In this document: positions 7,895-13,843 of the stretch, piece after piece
How positions within the stretch are numbered: the first letter of the stretch is position 1
Layout of the letters: the number at the start of each line of letters is the position of its first letter
NCBI RefSeq assembly: GCF_003334405.1
Contig: NZ_QOWM01000003.1
From: Escherichia coli
GTDB taxonomy: Bacteria > Pseudomonadota > Gammaproteobacteria > Enterobacterales > Enterobacteriaceae
Length of the DNA stretch: 64,000 nucleotides
Direction: 5' to 3' (one strand)
Translations under genes and position numbers: made by a program
Notes under the pieces: model-generated
Database searches by the model: none
What the model was told of the DNA's origin: nothing
What the model saw: only the letters and a program-made list of their open reading frames with translations

Positions 7895-8031
7895 CGTGTA
7901 ATGGCTGCATGAAATAAACAATAAAATATAAATAACATTATCAGCCTGCTGACGGCTTGAAGAGAGTCACAGTATCTTGTGCAACATTATTGGAAAGAGT
8001 GAGGGGCGAGGTAGCGAAGCGGAAAAATGTT

Positions 8032-8137
8032 AAAAAAAAGCCCATCGTGGGAGATGGGCAAAGACTACACACAGCAATTCGTTGTTTCACTCAGGGGATT
8101 TCCATGCTTATAAATCAATATGTTGATTTATAACCGT
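8032..8137 (-). ncRNA. rprA: RprA small regulatory RNA (Hfq-dependent activator of rpoS translation)
   Basis: Minus-strand sequence ACGGTTATAAATCAACATATTGATTTATAAGCATGG...CCCACGATGGGC followed by a T8 run matches my recollection of RprA; lies in the ydiL-ydiK intergenic region. Confidence 0.85.
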
Positions 8138-8322: not shown

Positions 8323-9435
8323 TTACTTATTCGGTTTCTCGATTTCGCCAAGTTCTTCGAGAATTTCTTCCGGTTGGTCCGTCGGCGGCGGGACTTCTTC
8401 CACCCACGCGGCAAACAGACGCCAGGAAACGGCTAACAGAACCGGACCAATAAACAGACCGATCATCCCGAAAGCAATCAAACCACCAATAACGCCAGAG
8501 AGAATCAGGATCAGCGGTAAATCGGCACCCATGCGAATTAACATTGGGCGGATGACGTTATCCAGCGTGCCAACCACACCGCTCCACACTAACAATACCG
8601 TTCCCCAGGTGGTATCGCCAGTCCAGTAGAGCCAGATAATCGCCGGAATCAGTACCGGCAACGGGCCAAGCTGGACAAGGCAGGAGAGGATCATTAACAC
8701 CGTTAGCAACGTTGCATAAGGTACGCCGGATACGGCGAGGCCGATACCGCCAAGCACTGCCTGTACTAACGCCGTCACCACCACACCCAGCGCCACCGCG
8801 CGGATAGCCTGTGCCGCCAGCAGCACGGCGGCATCTCCGCGAACGCCTGCCAGACGGGTTGCAAAATGGCGAATGCCTTGTGCCACCTGTTCACCGCGCC
8901 AGTACAGCAGGGCACTGAAGAGAAGCATCAGCGCACAATGCACCATAAAGCGCCCGATATGCGCCGCCTGCCCAACGAACCAGGTGGTGGTGGTGCCAAT
9001 ATAAGGGCGGACTTTCGCCATGATCGCCGTCCCCCCCATATCCAGCAAGTTGTGCCAGCCTGCATACAGCTTCGCGCCAATCACCGGAATGGTATTAAGC
9101 CACGCCAGATCGGGTAACGTCATGTCACCGCTGGAAATGGCTTTAATTAGCGGGCCGCTGCCGTCGACGATACTGTTAACCAGCAAAGCAATAGGGATGA
9201 TAAACACCATCACTAATAACAGCGTCATCACCAGAACGGCGAGAGAGCGGCGGCCAAACATGATCTTTTGCAAACGTAACAATACCGGCCAGGTGGCGAT
9301 AACCACCGTACCGGCCCATGCAAAGCCGAGAATAAAGGGTTGAACAATCCACAGACATGCCACAATCATGATGGCTAAAAACAGCACCGAAAGCAGAATT
9401 TGTGCGACATCCCTGGGCTGACGAACATTTACCAT
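8323..9435 (-). CDS. ydiK: AI-2E family (PerM/TqsA-like) inner-membrane transporter
   Basis: 370-aa multi-TM ORF; K-12 synteny. Confidence 0.85.
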   Translation of the reverse strand: MVNVRQPRDVAQILLSVLFLAIMIVACLWIVQPFILGFAWAGTVVIATWPVLLRLQKIMFGRRSLAVLVMTLLLVMVFIIPIALLVNSIVDGSGPLIKAISSGDMTLPDLAWLNTIPVIGAKLYAGWHNLLDMGGTAIMAKVRPYIGTTTTWFVGQAAHIGRFMVHCALMLLFSALLYWRGEQVAQGIRHFATRLAGVRGDAAVLLAAQAIRAVALGVVVTALVQAVLGGIGLAVSGVPYATLLTVLMILSCLVQLGPLPVLIPAIIWLYWTGDTTWGTVLLVWSGVVGTLDNVIRPMLIRMGADLPLILILSGVIGGLIAFGMIGLFIGPVLLAVSWRLFAAWVEEVPPPTDQPEEILEELGEIEKPNK

Positions 9436-9823
9436 AACTACTTTTCACCTTTTTTGTGCGTCAAATCGTCGACGCGACGTGAACACGCGAAACTCACCTG
9501 CATAATGATGAGCAATTTCAGCGGTTTTTAACAGGCCGATTCTGCCCTTAATTCTGATGGGCGTGTTAGAAAAAAATGTGGTACAACAACTCAGGCAACA
9601 CGCAAACGATTTACTCGTCGTATTTCAAGTTGCATGTGCTGCGGCTACGTTCGTTCACCCCAGTCACTTACTATTGTAAGCTCCTGGAGTTCACTCGCTT
9701 GCCGCCTTCCTGCAACACGAAATCCATAGAGTAAACAAACATCACCTTTCAGTGCGCTATTGCAGCAGCCTGAAAGAATAGTGTATCGACCTACATCACA
9801 GACCGCAGGAAAGGGTCAATATA

Positions 9824-12800
9824 ATGATTCCACAGATTTCCCAGGCACCCGGCGTCGTTCAACTGGTGCTTAATTTTTTGCAAGAGCTGGAGCAACAAGG
9901 TTTTACCGGCGATACGGCGACAAGTTATGCCGATCGTCTGACAATGTCGACCGACAACAGTATTTACCAACTTCTCCCCGATGCGGTGGTATTTCCGCGT
10001 TCAACCGCAGATGTGGCGCTGATCGCCCGTCTTGCCGCGCAGGAACGCTATTCATCGCTGATCTTTACCCCCCGCGGCGGCGGCACCGGCACTAACGGTC
10101 AGGCGCTCAACCAGGGGATTATTGTTGATATGTCCCGCCATATGAACCGCATCATCGAAATTAACCCTGAAGAGGGCTGGGTGCGCGTTGAGGCCGGGGT
10201 GATAAAAGATCAACTCAATCAGTACCTGAAACCGTTCGGCTACTTTTTTGCGCCGGAACTTTCGACCAGCAACCGGGCAACGCTCGGTGGGATGATCAAT
10301 ACCGATGCATCCGGTCAGGGATCGCTGGTCTATGGCAAAACGTCAGATCACGTACTTGGCGTACGCGCGGTGTTGTTGGGGGGCGATATTCTCGATACGC
10401 AACCTTTACCCGTCGAATTGGCGGAAACGCTGGGTAAATCCAATACCACAATCGGGCGAATTTATAACACGGTTTATCAACGTTGCCGTCAGCAACGCCA
10501 GTTAATTATCGACAACTTCCCCAAACTTAACCGCTTTCTTACCGGTTACGATCTGCGTCATGTCTTTAACGATGAGATGACCGAGTTCGACCTGACGCGC
10601 ATTCTGACGGGTTCAGAAGGGACGCTGGCCTTTATTACCGAAGCGCGGCTGGATATTACACGCTTGCCTAAAGTGCGCCGTCTGGTGAACGTCAAATATG
10701 ACTCTTTTGACTCTGCGCTGCGTAACGCGCCGTTTATGGTTGAGGCGCGGGCGCTTTCGGTAGAGACGGTGGACTCAAAAGTGCTGAATCTGGCGCGGGA
10801 AGATATTGTCTGGCATTCCGTCAGCGAGTTGATTACCGATGTGCCTGACCAAGAGATGCTCGGGCTGAACATTGTGGAATTTGCTGGTGATGATGAGGCG
10901 CTGATTGATGAGCGGGTAAATGCACTCTGTGCGCGGTTGGATGAGCTGATCGCCAGTCATCAAGCAGGTGTCATCGGCTGGCAGGTGTGCCGTGAGCTGG
11001 CGGGGGTTGAACGTATCTATGCAATGCGCAAAAAAGCCGTTGGTCTGCTTGGCAATGCCAAAGGTGCCGCTAAGCCAATTCCGTTTGCTGAGGATACCTG
11101 CGTACCGCCGGAACACCTGGCGGATTATATTGCTGAATTTCGCGCGCTGCTCGACAGCCACGGCTTAAGCTACGGTATGTTCGGTCACGTCGACGCAGGT
11201 GTCTTGCACGTCCGTCCAGCGCTGGATATGTGCGATCCTCAACAAGAGATTTTGATGAAGCAAATCTCTGATGACGTGGTGGCGCTGACTGCGAAATACG
11301 GTGGTTTGTTGTGGGGCGAGCACGGCAAAGGTTTTCGCGCTGAATACAGCCCGGCGTTTTTCGGTGAGGAACTTTTTGCAGAACTGCGCAAAGTGAAAGC
11401 GGCATTTGACCCGCATAACCGACTCAACCCAGGGAAGATTTGCCCGCCAGAAGGTCTCGATGCGCCGATGATGAAAGTGGACGCGGTGAAGCGCGGTACA
11501 TTCGATCGGCAGATCCCCATTGCGGTACGCCAGCAGTGGCGCGGTGCGATGGAGTGTAACGGCAACGGTTTATGCTTCAACTTTGATGCCCGTAGTCCGA
11601 TGTGTCCGTCGATGAAGATCACCCAGAACCGGATTCATTCACCGAAAGGGCGCGCAACGCTGGTGCGTGAATGGCTGCGTTTGTTGGCGGATCGCGGCGT
11701 TGATCCACTCAAACTGGAACAAGAACTGCCTGAATCCGGCGTCAGTTTGCGGACGTTAATTGCCCGCACGCGCAATAGCTGGCATGCGAATAAAGGCGAA
11801 TATGACTTCTCACACGAAGTCAAAGAGGCGATGTCGGGCTGTCTGGCCTGTAAAGCGTGTTCGACCCAGTGCCCCATCAAAATTGATGTGCCGGAGTTTC
11901 GCTCTCGTTTTCTGCAGCTCTATCACACCCGTTATTTACGCCCGCTGCGCGACCACCTCGTCGCTACGGTCGAGAGCTACGCGCCGCTGATGGCACGCGC
12001 GCCGAAAACCTTTAACTTCTTCATTAACCAGCCGCTGGTGCGCAAACTCTCGGAAAAACATATCGGCATGGTTGATTTGCCGCTGCTGTCGGTCCCCTCG
12101 CTACAACAACAAATGGTGGGGCATCGCTCGGCAAACATGACGCTGGAACAGCTTGAATCTCTCAATGCAGAGCAGAAAGCGCGCACAGTGTTGGTGGTGC
12201 AGGACCCCTTTACCAGCTATTACGATGCGCAAGTGGTGGCGGATTTTGTCCGTCTGGTCGAAAAATTAGGTTTCCAGCCTGTGTTACTGCCATTTTCGCC
12301 AAATGGCAAAGCCCAGCATATTAAAGGTTTTCTTAATCGTTTTGCGAAGACGGCGAAAAAGACGGCGGATTTCCTCAACCGTATGGCGAAGCTGGGTATG
12401 CCAATGGTGGGCGTCGATCCGGCGCTGGTACTTTGTTATCGCGATGAATATAAACTGGCGCTGGGCGAGGAGCGTGGCGAGTTTAACGTCTTACTGGCGA
12501 ATGAATGGCTGGCAAGCGCACTTGAGTCACAGCCAGTGGCTACAGTCAGCGGTGAATCATGGTATTTCTTTGGTCACTGTACCGAAGTTACCGCCTTGCC
12601 GGGTGCGCCAGCACAATGGGCCGCGATATTTGCCCGTTTTGGCGCGAAACTGGAAAATGTCAGCGTGGGTTGCTGCGGCATGGCAGGGACTTACGGACAT
12701 GAAGCGAAAAACCATGAAAATTCGCTCGGGATCTATGAGTTATCCTGGCATCAGGCTATGCAGCGACTGCCGCGTAACCGCTGTCTGGCGACCGGATATT

Positions 12801-12880
12801 CCTGCCGTAGCCAGGTAAAACGGGTTGAAGGCACGGGGGTACGCCATCCTGTGCAGGCTTTACTGGAGATTATTAAATGA
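9824..12880 (+). CDS. ydiJ: large FAD-linked oxidoreductase with Fe-S cluster motifs (reported D-2-hydroxyglutarate dehydrogenase)
   Basis: 1018-aa ORF; N-terminal FAD-binding type sequence; CLACKACSTQCP 4Fe-4S motif and C-terminal Cys-rich region visible in translation. Confidence 0.85.
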   Translation: MIPQISQAPGVVQLVLNFLQELEQQGFTGDTATSYADRLTMSTDNSIYQLLPDAVVFPRSTADVALIARLAAQERYSSLIFTPRGGGTGTNGQALNQGIIVDMSRHMNRIIEINPEEGWVRVEAGVIKDQLNQYLKPFGYFFAPELSTSNRATLGGMINTDASGQGSLVYGKTSDHVLGVRAVLLGGDILDTQPLPVELAETLGKSNTTIGRIYNTVYQRCRQQRQLIIDNFPKLNRFLTGYDLRHVFNDEMTEFDLTRILTGSEGTLAFITEARLDITRLPKVRRLVNVKYDSFDSALRNAPFMVEARALSVETVDSKVLNLAREDIVWHSVSELITDVPDQEMLGLNIVEFAGDDEALIDERVNALCARLDELIASHQAGVIGWQVCRELAGVERIYAMRKKAVGLLGNAKGAAKPIPFAEDTCVPPEHLADYIAEFRALLDSHGLSYGMFGHVDAGVLHVRPALDMCDPQQEILMKQISDDVVALTAKYGGLLWGEHGKGFRAEYSPAFFGEELFAELRKVKAAFDPHNRLNPGKICPPEGLDAPMMKVDAVKRGTFDRQIPIAVRQQWRGAMECNGNGLCFNFDARSPMCPSMKITQNRIHSPKGRATLVREWLRLLADRGVDPLKLEQELPESGVSLRTLIARTRNSWHANKGEYDFSHEVKEAMSGCLACKACSTQCPIKIDVPEFRSRFLQLYHTRYLRPLRDHLVATVESYAPLMARAPKTFNFFINQPLVRKLSEKHIGMVDLPLLSVPSLQQQMVGHRSANMTLEQLESLNAEQKARTVLVVQDPFTSYYDAQVVADFVRLVEKLGFQPVLLPFSPNGKAQHIKGFLNRFAKTAKKTADFLNRMAKLGMPMVGVDPALVLCYRDEYKLALGEERGEFNVLLANEWLASALESQPVATVSGESWYFFGHCTEVTALPGAPAQWAAIFARFGAKLENVSVGCCGMAGTYGHEAKNHENSLGIYELSWHQAMQRLPRNRCLATGYSCRSQVKRVEGTGVRHPVQALLEIIK

Positions 12881-13575: not shown

Positions 13576-13769
13576 TCCTGACTTAATGCCGCAAGTTCGC
13601 CAAATCGACCTGGATTAACCTCCGTCCAGGTTCGATGACCTTCTTAATACTGCTTATCTACCGCCTGATATTGTTCAAAAATAATACTAATCGCAGTTTG
13701 TGTTAAAACGGCGGGTTAGCTTTATGAGATTATTCTTATCGCCCCTTCAAGAGCTAAGCCACTGAGAGT

Positions 13770-13843
13770 GCCGGAGATAAGCGCCGGATGGGGTAGAAAC
13801 CCTTAAGCCTGTGTCGCACAGACTTAAGGGTTTTCTTATTTCT
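13770..13843 (+). ncRNA. rydB: candidate small RNA ending in an intrinsic terminator (possibly RydB)
   Basis: Stem cccttaag/cttaaggg (13800-13830) followed by TTTTCTTATTT, preceded by a short ccgg...ccgg hairpin, in the ydiH-sufA intergenic region where RydB is described; the 5' end is a guess. Confidence 0.35.

What the first reader, a model, noticed from the sequence alone, without database searches (positions are those of the whole stretch)
9824..12880. ydiJ: 1018-aa multidomain FAD / Fe-S oxidoreductase with a long divergent upstream region
The protein combines an FAD-binding oxidase domain with CxxCxxCxxxCP and further Cys clusters. It has been linked to D-2-hydroxyglutarate oxidation. 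The 388-bp divergent region shared with ydiK (9436-9823) contains palindromes (cgtcgacgcgacg, ctttcag...ctgaaag) whose function I cannot assign.
Basis: partly seen in the sequence, partly recalled or inferred. Interest (0 to 1): 0.3.

Follow-up and report, generated by a model that had tools for sequence, protein, structure and literature searches.

The report
Known enzyme gene with repeat insertion

Summary
The ORF, its domains and the 388-bp ydiK-ydiJ spacer are as described. The ydiJ ORF is 100% identical to E. coli K-12 MG1655. YdiJ is a published D-2-hydroxyglutarate dehydrogenase.

The spacer is long because the ydiJ 5' leader carries a 122-bp ERIC repeat (9612-9733) plus a 60-bp single-copy segment (9734-9793). 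About 21.5% of 5,424 complete E. coli genomes lack both, including B2 strains such as Nissle and LF82. So do Citrobacter, Enterobacter and Klebsiella, which keep the roughly 200-213-bp ancestral spacer.

Published start sites put the main ydiJ start at 9595. It lies behind a conserved extended -10 (TGgTACAAC) and is followed at +6..+21 by a PurR-type operator (9600-9615). The last four bases of that operator come from the ERIC end.

- **Palindrome 2 (9746-9776)** lies inside the Escherichia-only insertion. It is broken in O157:H7 and occurs no more often than chance.
- **Palindrome 1 (9467-9479)** is conserved only in Escherichia and one Citrobacter. It overlaps a hairpin (9458-9475) in the ydiK leader that keeps its position in 51 of 76 enterobacterial leaders, with 33 different stems.

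Verdict: ordinary and largely known. The minor new details are the hybrid operator, the leader hairpin and a local recombination signal.

The parts
9824..12880 (+). ydiJ coding sequence: D-2-hydroxyglutarate dehydrogenase, with a GlcD-type FAD domain and a GlpC-type Fe-S domain
   Evidence: ORF. NF049975 scores 1727.9 bits against a cut-off of 1350. Pfam domains. CLACKACSTQCP at 673-684. Identical to MG1655 ydiJ. Enzyme characterised in PMC9504171.
8323..9435 (-). ydiK coding sequence: AI-2E family transporter, divergent neighbour of ydiJ
   Evidence: ORF. NF008216 scores 687.6 bits. RefSeq annotation. The divergent pairing with ydiJ is kept in all 79 other loci that could be examined.
9458..9475 (-). 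Hairpin in the ydiK 5' leader (RNA GCGUCGA-cgau-UUGACGC). Its 3' end lies 22 nt before the ydiK ATG.
   Evidence: A hairpin ends 20-24 nt before the ATG in 51 of 76 distinct enterobacterial leaders, against 4.6 +/- 2.1 in shuffles, with 33 stem variants. Covariation score is 0.364 against 0.175 in shuffles, reached by 0 of 500. RNAalifold on the same alignment found no consensus.
9467..9479 (.).
   Evidence: Present. Chance level. The exact string occurs only in Escherichia and C. amalonaticus.
9502..9507 (-). -10-like CATTAT for the proximal ydiK start site at 9497 (62-nt leader)
   Evidence: TSS 1,767,036 in Kim 2012 and Romero 2014, mapped to the window. Lies in the conserved block TAATGAT.
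9539..9544 (-). -10-like CAGAAT for the distal ydiK start site at 9532
   Evidence: TSS 1,767,001 in Romero 2014. The hexamer sits at -12..-7. Lies in the block GATTCTGCC, largely invariant across the 14 aligned species.
9569..9587 (+). ydiJ promoter: A-tract plus extended -10 TG-g-TACAAC (9579-9587). Main start site at 9595.
   Evidence: TSS 1,766,938, 49 reads, UTR 229 nt (Kim 2012), checked against the window. The block AAAATGTG[AG]TA is present in 78 of 83 spacers.
9600..9615 (-). PurR-type operator AGTAAATCGTTTGCGT at +6..+21 of the ydiJ transcript. Bases 9612-9615 belong to the ERIC end.
   Evidence: A PWM built from the 28 PurR sites of Cho 2011 scores it 18.42 bits. That is second in the 64-kb window after the purR operator itself. 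A ChIP-chip peak covers the ydiJ/ydiK spacer. The homologous site scores at least 11.84 in 66 of 79 loci.
9612..9733 (+). ERIC (IRU) miniature inverted-repeat element, transcribed within the ydiJ leader
   Evidence: 25-nt terminal arms. ERIC2 primer matches 20 of 22 bases at 9652-9673. Median 12 places per E. coli genome. 85-87% identical to the ERIC between ybhI and ybhJ. RNA fold -39.2 kcal/mol, z -4.35. Weak Rfam hits V_AS5 and Ysr49.
9734..9793 (+). Single-copy segment that always accompanies this ERIC.
   Evidence: Found only in the 4,256 genomes with the long allele, one place each. No similarity elsewhere in the window or in 80 loci. Hairpin -13.6 kcal/mol, z -2.46. Left arm mutated in O157:H7, Tig207, E1V33 and E. 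albertii.
9744..9744 (+). Second mapped ydiJ 5' end (80-nt leader), 11 nt past the ERIC. Primary or processed is undecided.
   Evidence: Kim 2012 position 1,766,789, 25 reads, checked.
9807..9815 (+). ydiJ ribosome-binding region AGGAAAGGG
   Evidence: Sequence. The last 30 nt before the ATG are 100% identical across Escherichia species, and GGGTC is invariant across 14 genera.

Best explanation
The window carries the ordinary E. coli K-12 ydiK-ydiJ divergent pair. ydiJ encodes the known FAD/Fe-S D-2-hydroxyglutarate dehydrogenase.

The ancestral control region is about 200-213 bp. It holds two ydiK promoters, a ydiK leader hairpin, and one ydiJ extended -10 promoter. A PurR operator follows immediately, within the first 21 transcribed bases of ydiJ.

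In an ancestor within Escherichia, an ERIC mobile repeat inserted right after the operator core. A further roughly 60 bp of unique DNA containing a hairpin lies directly downstream of the ERIC. Together they lengthen the ydiJ leader from about 54 to 229 nt and turn it into a strongly folded RNA.

- **Shown:** the anatomy, the insertion polymorphism, the repeat-family membership, the published start sites and the published PurR ChIP peak.
- **Inferred:** that PurR with hypoxanthine bound at +6..+21 blocks ydiJ transcription; that the ERIC end, which supplies 4 operator bases, strengthens that site; and that the folded leader changes ydiJ mRNA stability or translation.

Palindrome 1 is one register of a ydiK-leader hairpin whose position, not sequence, is conserved.
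For: - **Identity:**; literature.
- **ERIC membership:**; defining features from reviews.
- **Insertion polymorphism:** 4,256 of 5,424 genomes cover the full spacer. The rest span 486 bp instead of 661 bp. The short allele reads ACGATT-AATCTCT-CATCAC.
- **Ancestral state:** the short allele is collinear with Citrobacter, Enterobacter, Klebsiella, Leclercia and Lelliottia. Distance from the ydiK start to the operator stays at about 150-165 bp. Distance from the operator to the ydiJ start ranges from 38 to 223 bp.
- **Start sites:** Kim 2012 and Romero 2014, verified on the window.
- **PurR:** ChIP peak. PWM 18.42 bits for the long allele against 12.39 for the short one. Site conserved in 66 of 79 loci.
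- **Leader folding:**
Against: - No expression data compare the long and short alleles.
- Cho 2011 did not name ydiJ or ydiK among the genes whose mRNA changed in a purR mutant, and listed no motif for this peak. PurR control is therefore binding only, with no demonstrated effect.
- The promoter scan found no consensus sigma-70 promoter in the spacer. This fits an extended -10 promoter but offers no independent support.
- The empty site is not a clean target duplication: AATCTCT in the short allele against TA...TA-AACAAA in the long one. The origin of the 60-bp segment is unexplained.
- The high conservation of the ERIC between Escherichia species could reflect function. It is equally explained by a short recombination tract.
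Confidence: 0.85

Rival explanations
1. The two small palindromes are operators for dimeric transcription factors that control the divergent promoters.
For: Both have dyad symmetry and lie between the two genes. The region is bound by at least one regulator in vivo (PurR).
Against: - Both occur at chance frequency.
- Palindrome 2 lies at +152..+182 of the ydiJ transcript, inside DNA absent from 21.5% of E. coli and from all other genera. Its left arm is CTTTCTG in O157:H7 and CTTTCGG in E. albertii with no matching change in the partner arm.
- At palindrome 1, the stem sequence changes freely between genera while pairing is kept. Thirteen leaders need G-U pairs that exist only on the ydiK-sense strand. 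This is how an RNA hairpin behaves, not a protein site.
Confidence: 0.05
2. The ERIC and the adjacent hairpin are not passive. As part of the 229-nt leader they set ydiJ mRNA half-life, processing or translation, and the long allele is kept for that reason. This is compatible with the best explanation and goes one step further.
For: - Both are transcribed from the main start site.
- A second 5' end at 9744, 11 nt past the ERIC, could be a processing product.
- ERICs co-transcribed with genes in Yersinia alter mRNA stability through an RNase E site (reviews).
- The ERIC is 95-98% identical between Escherichia species, while third codon positions of the flanking genes are 66-78% identical.
Against: - Short-allele strains are abundant and successful (Nissle, LF82).
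- The high identity extends about 80 codons into both genes at synonymous sites. This points to recombination rather than constraint on the ERIC.
- 3' end mapping lists no termination site in the leader.
- The Yersinia effect was described for ERICs downstream of genes, not in 5' leaders.
Confidence: 0.3
3. The conserved ydiK-leader hairpin is a transcription attenuator (a leader terminator) that controls read-through into ydiK.
For: - The hairpin keeps its position in 51 of 76 leaders.
- In Enterobacter, Lelliottia, Leclercia and Siccibacter it is followed by a T-rich tail. The terminator scan flags it in Enterobacter sp. RIT418 as CGCCAGCCGATCTGGCG TTTATTTAAG.
Against: - In Escherichia, Citrobacter, Salmonella and Klebsiella the tail is A-rich (ACAAAAAAGG), and no terminator is called there.
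- The whole 65-nt E. coli leader folds no better than shuffles, z -0.31.
- No alternative anti-terminator pairing was found.
- No 3' end in the leader appears in published mapping.
Confidence: 0.15
4. The 5' end at 9744 is a genuine second ydiJ promoter created by the ERIC end, so the repeat donates a promoter rather than only a leader structure.
For: 25 reads in a start-site data set. A possible TAAACA at -12..-7 and TGCAAC 15 nt upstream, both inside the ERIC. Another weak start inside the ERIC on the other strand (9665) has a TACAAT -10.
Against: Both hexamers are poor and the spacer is short. The promoter scan called nothing. Romero 2014 lists no ydiJ-strand start here. The position just 3' of a long hairpin also fits a processing or exonuclease stop.
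Confidence: 0.2

Closest known systems
YdiJ-type D-2-hydroxyglutarate dehydrogenase (NCBIfam NF049975; Samsonov et al. 2022, PMC9504171)
   Same: It is this protein. The DNA is identical to MG1655 ydiJ. The GlcD-type FAD domain and the GlpC-type Fe-S domain are both present.
   Different: Nothing differs. No solved structure of the full-length protein is in the PDB.
[quoted passage not shown] 1991; reviews PMC2229807, PMC3184786, PMC10969869)
   Same: Size, terminal inverted arms, the conserved central core matched by the ERIC2 primer, many dispersed copies, intergenic and transcribed location, TA at the element ends, and presence/absence variation between strains.
   Different: - This copy sits in a 5' leader and abuts an operator, supplying its last 4 bases.
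- It is always accompanied by a 60-bp single-copy segment of unknown origin.
- The empty site is not a simple TA duplication.
PurR operators, especially the glyA operator AGGTAATCGTTTGCGT (Cho et al. 2011, PMC3159470)
   Same: A 16-bp dyad with central CG. It is identical to the glyA site at 14 of 16 positions. Its PWM score lies inside the range of known sites. PurR occupies the region in vivo when adenine is present.
   Different: - It lies downstream of the start site (+6..+21), unlike the sites between the -35 and -10 elements, which Cho 2011 found at 14 of 32 PurR-regulated promoter regions and describes as the general position.
- No PurR-dependent change in ydiJ or ydiK mRNA has been reported.
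- The ancestral (short-allele) version scores only 12.4 bits.
ERIC elements co-transcribed with Yersinia genes that modulate mRNA decay (De Gregorio et al. 2005, as summarised in PMC2229807 and PMC10969869)
   Same: An ERIC transcribed as part of an mRNA and folding into a long stem-loop.
   Different: The Yersinia cases are 3' of the affected gene and depend on orientation and ribosome traffic. Here the ERIC is 5' of the coding sequence. No stability data exist. The original paper could not be read.

Membership tests
YdiJ-type D-2-hydroxyglutarate dehydrogenase (NF049975) | Full-length match above the curated cut-off | tested here: met
   1727.9 bits against a cut-off of 1350, covering residues 1-1016 of 1018. 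ORF identical to MG1655 ydiJ.
YdiJ-type D-2-hydroxyglutarate dehydrogenase (NF049975) | N-terminal GlcD-type FAD-binding oxidase domains | tested here: met
   PF01565 at 52-192 (7e-38) and PF02913 at 281-539 (3.3e-68).
YdiJ-type D-2-hydroxyglutarate dehydrogenase (NF049975) | C-terminal GlpC-type Fe-S domain with a CxxCxxCxxxCP motif | tested here: met
   Fer4_8 at 577-687. GlpC model NF008369 at 664-1016, 1.3e-31. CLACKACSTQCP at 673-684.
YdiJ-type D-2-hydroxyglutarate dehydrogenase (NF049975) | D-2-hydroxyglutarate-specific dehydrogenase activity | not testable with these tools
   Taken from the literature. The purified E. coli enzyme has Km 83 uM (PMC9504171). Knock-outs accumulate D-2-HG (PMC12297413).
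ERIC / IRU element | About 127 bp, an imperfect palindrome with terminal inverted repeats, folding into a long stem-loop | tested here: met
   122 bp between TACTCG and GAGTA (9612-9733). Arms 9610-9634 and 9711-9735 are 76% complementary. RNA fold -39.2 kcal/mol, z -4.35.
ERIC / IRU element | Conserved central core (the sequence the ERIC primers were designed on) | tested here: met
   ERIC2 matches 20 of 22 bases at 9652-9673 (-), with 0 expected by chance. ERIC1R fails an ungapped search within 3 mismatches. By eye this is because this copy lacks one base, as the gap in alignment A6 shows.
ERIC / IRU element | Multiple dispersed homologous copies in the genome | tested here: met
   Median 12 places per E. 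coli genome, range 2-18. Aligned along its whole length with the ybhI-ybhJ copy at 85-87% identity, and with ERICs from two other genera.
ERIC / IRU element | TA at the termini and a target-site duplication | tested here: inconclusive
   The element begins TA(CTCG) and ends (GAG)TA. The flanks (ATT | AACAAAC) do not reproduce the short allele (ATT-AATCTCT-CATCAC) as a simple TA duplication.
PurR operator | 16-bp dyad matching ACGNAAACGTTTGCNT with a central CG | tested here: met
   AGTAAATCGTTTGCGT scores 18.42 bits. The training sites range from 11.84 to 24.84 with median 20.0. Only 2 positions in the 64-kb window reach this score.
PurR operator | PurR occupancy in vivo | not testable with these tools
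   Taken from the literature. ChIP-chip peak at 1,766,545-1,767,225, log2 ratio 1.08, seen with adenine only, assigned to ydiJ/ydiK with no motif listed (Cho 2011).
PurR operator | PurR-dependent repression of the adjacent gene | not testable with these tools
   Not reported. ydiJ and ydiK are not among the genes named as differentially expressed, and the supplement is not held.
Intrinsic terminator | GC-rich hairpin followed by a T run on the transcribed strand | tested here: not met
   Neither palindrome is called in the window. The tails are ACAAAAAAGG for the ydiK hairpin and AATAGTGTAT for palindrome 2. The orthologous ydiK hairpin in Enterobacter sp. RIT418 is called.
Described RNA families (Rfam 15) | A covariance-model match at either palindrome | tested here: not met
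   No hit at 9458-9479 or 9746-9776 at E up to 1. Only sub-threshold V_AS5 and Ysr49 hits over the ERIC.

The most novel reading that the evidence does not exclude
The ERIC insertion was co-opted. Its end completes a stronger PurR operator (18.4 against 12.4 bits), and its hairpin restructures the ydiJ leader. D-2-hydroxyglutarate disposal would then be tied more tightly to purine status in most Escherichia. On this reading the long allele spread between Escherichia species by short recombination tracts because it was favoured. The natural long and short alleles would be a ready-made test of regulatory evolution driven by a mobile repeat. Separately, the position-conserved ydiK leader hairpin could be an undescribed cis-regulatory RNA of a PurR-associated transporter gene.
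Probability: 0.15. Interest if true: 0.45.

Novelty: already known. Interest (0 to 1): 0.2.

Why it matters
As handed over, the finding does not open a new question. The enzyme is characterised, the repeat family has been known since 1990-91, and PurR binding to this spacer was reported in 2011.

The re-analysis contributes a coherent map of a previously unannotated control region:
- which conserved blocks are promoters;
- where the PurR site is, which Cho et al. could not place;
- the fact that 4 of its 16 bases come from a mobile repeat;
- the fact that about one E. coli genome in five carries the repeat-free ancestral leader.

This gives anyone engineering ydiJ or D-2-hydroxyglutarate production a reason to check which allele their strain has. 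It also offers a small natural experiment on how ERIC insertions affect a downstream gene.

Tried and rejected
- **Consensus promoter and terminator scan of the spacer:** no promoter. The only terminator-like site is inside ydiJ coding sequence at 9851-9870.
- **ERIC1R primer search:** no ungapped match within 3 mismatches. By eye, this copy lacks one base there, as the gap in alignment A6 shows.
- **Cappable-seq supplement (PMC4782308):** no entries for this locus in the stored text.
- **Papers not held:** Thomason 2015 dRNA-seq, De Gregorio 2005, and Wilson and Sharp 2006. I could not check whether this ERIC copy and its polymorphism are already tabulated.
- **Klebsiella start sites** for the orthologues were not in the stored part of Kim 2012.
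- **PurR paper supplements** are not held.
- **3' end mapping (Adams et al.):** no 3' end in either leader, only one inside ydiK.
- **RNAalifold on the model-fitted ydiK-leader alignment:** no consensus structure. I attribute this to one-column register shifts between genera seen by eye. I therefore relied on an alignment-free positional test and on pair counts with controls.
- **The 60-bp segment** was searched against all E. coli genomes, the window and 80 loci. No second copy and no relative was found.
- **A 25-codon upstream ORF in the long ydiK leader (9438-9515, -)** was considered and dropped. Its start codon is absent in Citrobacter, and it lies upstream of the proximal start site.
- **A CRP half-site reading of TGTGATA** was considered and dropped because the second half is not conserved (my reading).
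Full report
**What is there**

The ORF list gives 9824..12880 (+), 1018 aa, and the divergent ORF 8323..9435 (-), 370 aa. This leaves a 388-bp spacer at 9436-9823. A 661-bp query across the spacer is 100% identical to E. coli K-12 MG1655, where the genes are annotated ydiK and ydiJ. The whole ydiJ ORF is identical to the MG1655 copy.

The protein matches NCBIfam NF049975 'D-2-hydroxyglutarate dehydrogenase YdiJ' at 1727.9 bits, against a cut-off of 1350. It also has weaker matches to GlcD (N-terminal) and GlpC (residues 664-1016). Pfam finds FAD_binding_4, FAD-oxidase_C and Fer4_8. The motif CLACKACSTQCP is at 673-684.

No full-length relative has a solved structure; the PDB matches listed cover only the FAD domain. 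The enzyme has been purified and characterised (PMC9504171). It has been shown to be the only D-2-HG dehydrogenase of E. coli, with both domains required (PMC12297413). The protein half of the finding is correct and already known.

**The palindromes as observed**

In dinucleotide-preserving shuffles of the spacer, inverted repeats of these sizes are expected about as often as observed (p=0.32 and p=0.22).

It has 25-nt arms at 9610-9634 and 9711-9735, which bound a 126-bp imperfect palindrome.

**The 126-bp palindrome is an ERIC element**

- The widely used ERIC2 primer matches 20 of 22 bases at 9652-9673 on the minus strand, with none expected by chance (primer sequence as printed in many papers).
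- A 136-bp query over the element finds a median of 12 places per genome in 5,426 complete E. coli genomes.
- In genomes that lack this copy, the best match is the element between ybhI and ybhJ. It is 85-87% identical over query bases 5-129.
- An alignment with that copy and with ERICs from two other genera is homologous end to end. It fixes the ends at TACTCG...GAGTA, that is 9612-9733.
- As RNA it folds into one long stem-loop, -39.2 kcal/mol, z -4.35.
- Two sub-threshold Rfam hits (V_AS5, Ysr49) cover it.

These are the defining features given in reviews: about 127 bp, terminal inverted repeats, TA ends, dispersed copies, and strain-to-strain presence or absence.

**The long spacer is a derived allele**

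Only 4,256 of 5,424 E. coli genomes (78.5%) cover the full query. The remainder span 486 bp instead of 661 bp.

Two such genomes show that 9612-9793 is replaced by AATCTCT, giving a 213-bp spacer. The segment 9734-9800 is single-copy and occurs in exactly the 4,256 long-allele genomes. The ERIC and the adjacent 60 bp therefore always travel together.

Short-allele strains include Nissle 1917, LF82 and MP1. Their assignment to phylogroup B2 is my own knowledge.

In 80 orthologous loci from other species, ydiK and ydiJ are divergent neighbours wherever both were captured. Spacer length clusters at 193-213 bp. A length of 388 bp is seen only in Escherichia: E. albertii, E. whittamii, E. sp. E1V33 and an E. 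coli representative. Escherichia sp. MOD1-EC7003 has 213 bp.

The short E. coli allele is collinear with Citrobacter, Enterobacter, Klebsiella, Leclercia and Lelliottia, including the ATTAA that follows the operator core. Short is therefore ancestral and long is an insertion.

The distance from the ydiK start to the operator core is nearly constant (median 160 bp). The distance from the core to the ydiJ start ranges from 38 to 223 bp. Other lineages carry their own insertions in the same stretch. Two of these are independent ERIC insertions right next to the same operator, in L046 and L059.

The 60-bp segment has no relative in the window or in any fetched locus. It is bracketed by the direct repeat ACATCAC (9739-9745 and 9793-9799). 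This may mark a second small insertion, but its origin is unexplained.

**Transcription map**

Published start-site tables were mapped onto the window using the printed 51-nt upstream sequences. Kim et al. 2012 list these ends:
- for ydiJ, a main start at window 9595 (49 reads, 229-nt leader);
- for ydiJ, a second 5' end at 9744 (25 reads);
- for ydiK, weak starts at 9497, 9665 and 9952.

Romero et al. 2014 list ydiK-strand starts at 9497 and 9532, and none on the ydiJ strand.

The conserved blocks of the multi-genus alignment coincide with these sites:
- CATTAT (9502-9507, minus strand) lies upstream of 9497.
- CAGAAT (9539-9544, minus strand) lies at -12..-7 of 9532.
- TG-g-TACAAC (9579-9587), an extended -10 behind an A-tract, lies upstream of 9595. 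This block is present in 78 of 83 spacers.

The ERIC and the 60-bp segment therefore lie inside the ydiJ leader. Without them the leader would be about 54 nt and essentially unfolded, -6.3 kcal/mol. With them it contains two strong hairpins.

**PurR**

Cho et al. 2011 reported a PurR ChIP-chip peak over exactly this spacer. It was seen in adenine-grown cells only, and they listed no motif for it.

I built a weight matrix from their 28 listed sites and scanned the window on both strands. The best hit is the purR operator itself (40710-40725). That site is in the training set, so it serves only as a sanity check. The second best is AGTAAATCGTTTGCGT at 9600-9615 on the minus strand, at 18.42 bits. 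This is well inside the range of known sites, and the site was not used for training. It differs from the glyA operator at two positions.

It lies at +6..+21 of the ydiJ transcript, and 68 to 118 bp upstream of the two ydiK starts. I therefore infer that PurR acts on ydiJ, by hindering promoter escape or elongation, rather than on ydiK as later papers assume. This is inference: no PurR-dependent expression change is reported for either gene.

The homologous site scores at least as high as the weakest known site in 66 of 79 other loci.

Bases 9612-9615 of the operator are the first four bases of the ERIC. The ancestral version, GATTAATCGTTTGCGT, scores 12.39 bits. In the two other lineages with an ERIC at this spot the score is not raised (10.5 and 12.2 bits). 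The gain in Escherichia therefore looks accidental.

A functional link is plausible but speculative. D-2-HG is a by-product of SerA. From my own knowledge, serine feeds glycine, one-carbon and purine synthesis.

**Palindrome 1**

In the ydiK-sense strand the E. coli leader reads ...GUUCAC GUC GCGUCGA cgau UUGACGC ACAAAAAAGGUG...AUG.

Across genera the stem sequence changes while pairing is kept. Examples are GCGTCA/TGACGC, GCGCCA/TGGCGC, CGCCAG/CTGGCG, CACCGG/CCGGTG, ACCAGC/GCTGGT, TGCGCCC/GGGCGTA and TACGCTCA/TGAGCGTA.

An alignment-free test gives the following:
- a hairpin ends 20-24 nt before the ydiK start in 51 of 76 distinct leaders;
- shuffles give 4.6 +/- 2.1, with a maximum of 12;
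- there are 33 stem variants;
- only 38 leaders qualify under the pairing rules of the opposite strand, so 13 rely on G-U pairs in the ydiK sense.

On a model-fitted alignment, 45 cells change on both sides, against 8.3 +/- 4.2 in shuffles. The covariation score is 0.364 against 0.175, reached by 0 of 500 shuffles. Every slid control is lower. That alignment leans towards the structure, and RNAalifold on it returns no consensus. I read this as one-column register shifts between genera, so the support is good but not formal.

In several genera the hairpin is followed by a T-rich tail and is called terminator-like. In E. coli the tail is A-rich and nothing is called. The whole 65-nt E. coli leader folds no better than shuffles, z -0.31.

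My best reading is a leader hairpin that affects ydiK mRNA stability or ribosome access. An attenuator role in some genera is a weaker alternative.

**Palindrome 2**

It lies at +152..+182 of the ydiJ transcript and forms a bulged hairpin, -13.6 kcal/mol, z -2.46. There is no T tail.

It exists only where the insertion exists. Even within Escherichia the sixth stem base is A in K-12, T in O157:H7, Tig207 and E1V33 (a T-T mismatch), and G in E. albertii. The partner base never changes. The exact palindrome occurs in only 2 of the 80 genome-scan loci (L004 and L006). Nothing points to a conserved function.

**An evolutionary side signal**

| Region, K-12 against E. albertii | Identity |
|---|---|
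| ERIC | 95.1% |
| Left part of the spacer | 95.5% |
| Third codon positions of ydiK and ydiJ, overall | 66-68% |
| Neighbouring spacers | 82-86% |
| Third positions, first 40 codons of each gene | 90-97% |
| Third positions, next 40 codons | 82-85% |
| Third positions beyond that | mostly about 55-80% |

The same gradient appears against E. whittamii and a divergent E. coli-like genome. It does not appear next to the equally conserved rprA gene.

This looks like a short recombination tract centred on the spacer. The long allele has probably moved between Escherichia lineages. Two things follow:
- It explains why the long/short split does not follow species boundaries.
- The conservation of the ERIC cannot be read as evidence that it is functional.

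**Verdict**

The finding is real as an observation but ordinary. It consists of a known enzyme gene, a known repeat family, a previously reported PurR-bound spacer, and two small palindromes that are no more than chance would give.

The modest new points are:
- placement of the PurR site, and its hybrid origin;
- the ancestral repeat-free allele in about a fifth of E. coli;
- a position-conserved ydiK leader hairpin;
- the local recombination signal.

I could not check whether Wilson and Sharp (2006) already tabulated this ERIC polymorphism.

Noticed in passing
window 8030-8137 (-) and 13741-13801 (+): The small RNA genes rprA (118.5 bits) and rydB (81.6 bits) flank the ydiK-ydiJ-menI block. 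Both score above Rfam gathering thresholds.
   Followed up: no
window 40710-40725: This is the best PurR-matrix hit in the window, AGGTAAACGTTTGCCT at 21.95 bits. It is the sequence Cho 2011 list for the purR operator, so the purR gene itself lies in this window, about 31 kb from ydiJ.
   Followed up: partly
window 12877-12880: The ydiJ stop codon and the menI start codon overlap as ATGA. This suggests that ydiJ and menI (a 1,4-dihydroxy-2-naphthoyl-CoA hydrolase) are co-transcribed and translationally coupled.
   Followed up: partly
L046 2268-2380; L059 2338-2461 and 2097-2202: ERIC elements have inserted independently right after the same PurR operator core in Enterobacter sp. JUb54 and in the L059 genome. 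The Escherichia and JUb54 insertions are within one base of each other. L059 has a second ERIC on the ydiK side. The TTAA/TA stretch after the operator looks like an insertion hot spot.
   Followed up: partly
L010, L014, L025/L030/L033/L035/L036/L048/L063, L027/L028, L053/L065/L073, L075/L079 (spacers of 257-419 bp): Other genera carry their own non-ERIC insertions in the ydiJ leader. Salmonella has about +50 bp, Kluyvera about +55 bp, and Raoultella and an Enterobacter sp. +120 to +180 bp. In C. amalonaticus about 200 bp lie between the promoter block and the PurR site. None was identified.
   Followed up: no
window about 9100-10300, compared with L004, L006, L007: Synonymous-site identity between Escherichia species is 90-100% in the first 40 codons of both ydiK and ydiJ. 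It decays to background (mostly about 55-80%) over about 80 codons. No such gradient exists next to rprA. This is the signature of a short recombination tract or sweep centred on the spacer.
   Followed up: partly
L059 (record CACSKA010000003.1): The record is titled Chryseobacterium sp. 18061. Yet it carries a typical enterobacterial ydiK-ydiJ locus (YdiJ 87% identical to E. coli) with ERIC elements. It is probably a mislabelled or contaminated assembly.
   Followed up: no
L084 1-32 (E. coli O157:H7 FRIK2533): ydiK is annotated as a frameshifted pseudogene in this O157:H7 genome. I did not check whether this is real or an assembly error.
   Followed up: no
E. coli genome collection: Among the genomes listed, those that lack the ydiJ-leader ERIC (for example Nissle, Ecol_244) show only 3-9 ERIC-like places. 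K-12-like genomes show 10-14. ERIC load seems to differ by lineage.
   Followed up: no
window 9665 (-) and 9673-9678: A weak published start site (3 reads) lies inside the centre of the ERIC on the ydiK strand, with a TACAAT -10 formed by the ERIC loop. The repeat may carry a minor outward promoter.
   Followed up: no
window 9438-9515 (-): A 25-codon upstream ORF (MLIIMQVSFACSRRVDDLTHKKGEK) ends 2 nt before the ydiK start codon. It would be present only in transcripts from the distal start at 9532. Its internal ATG is absent in Citrobacter.
   Followed up: partly
ydiK coding region (K-12 U00096.3 position 1,769,889): A supplementary table of Adams et al. lists a 3' end internal to ydiK. It was not mapped to window coordinates because the offset between genome versions was not verified.
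   Followed up: no
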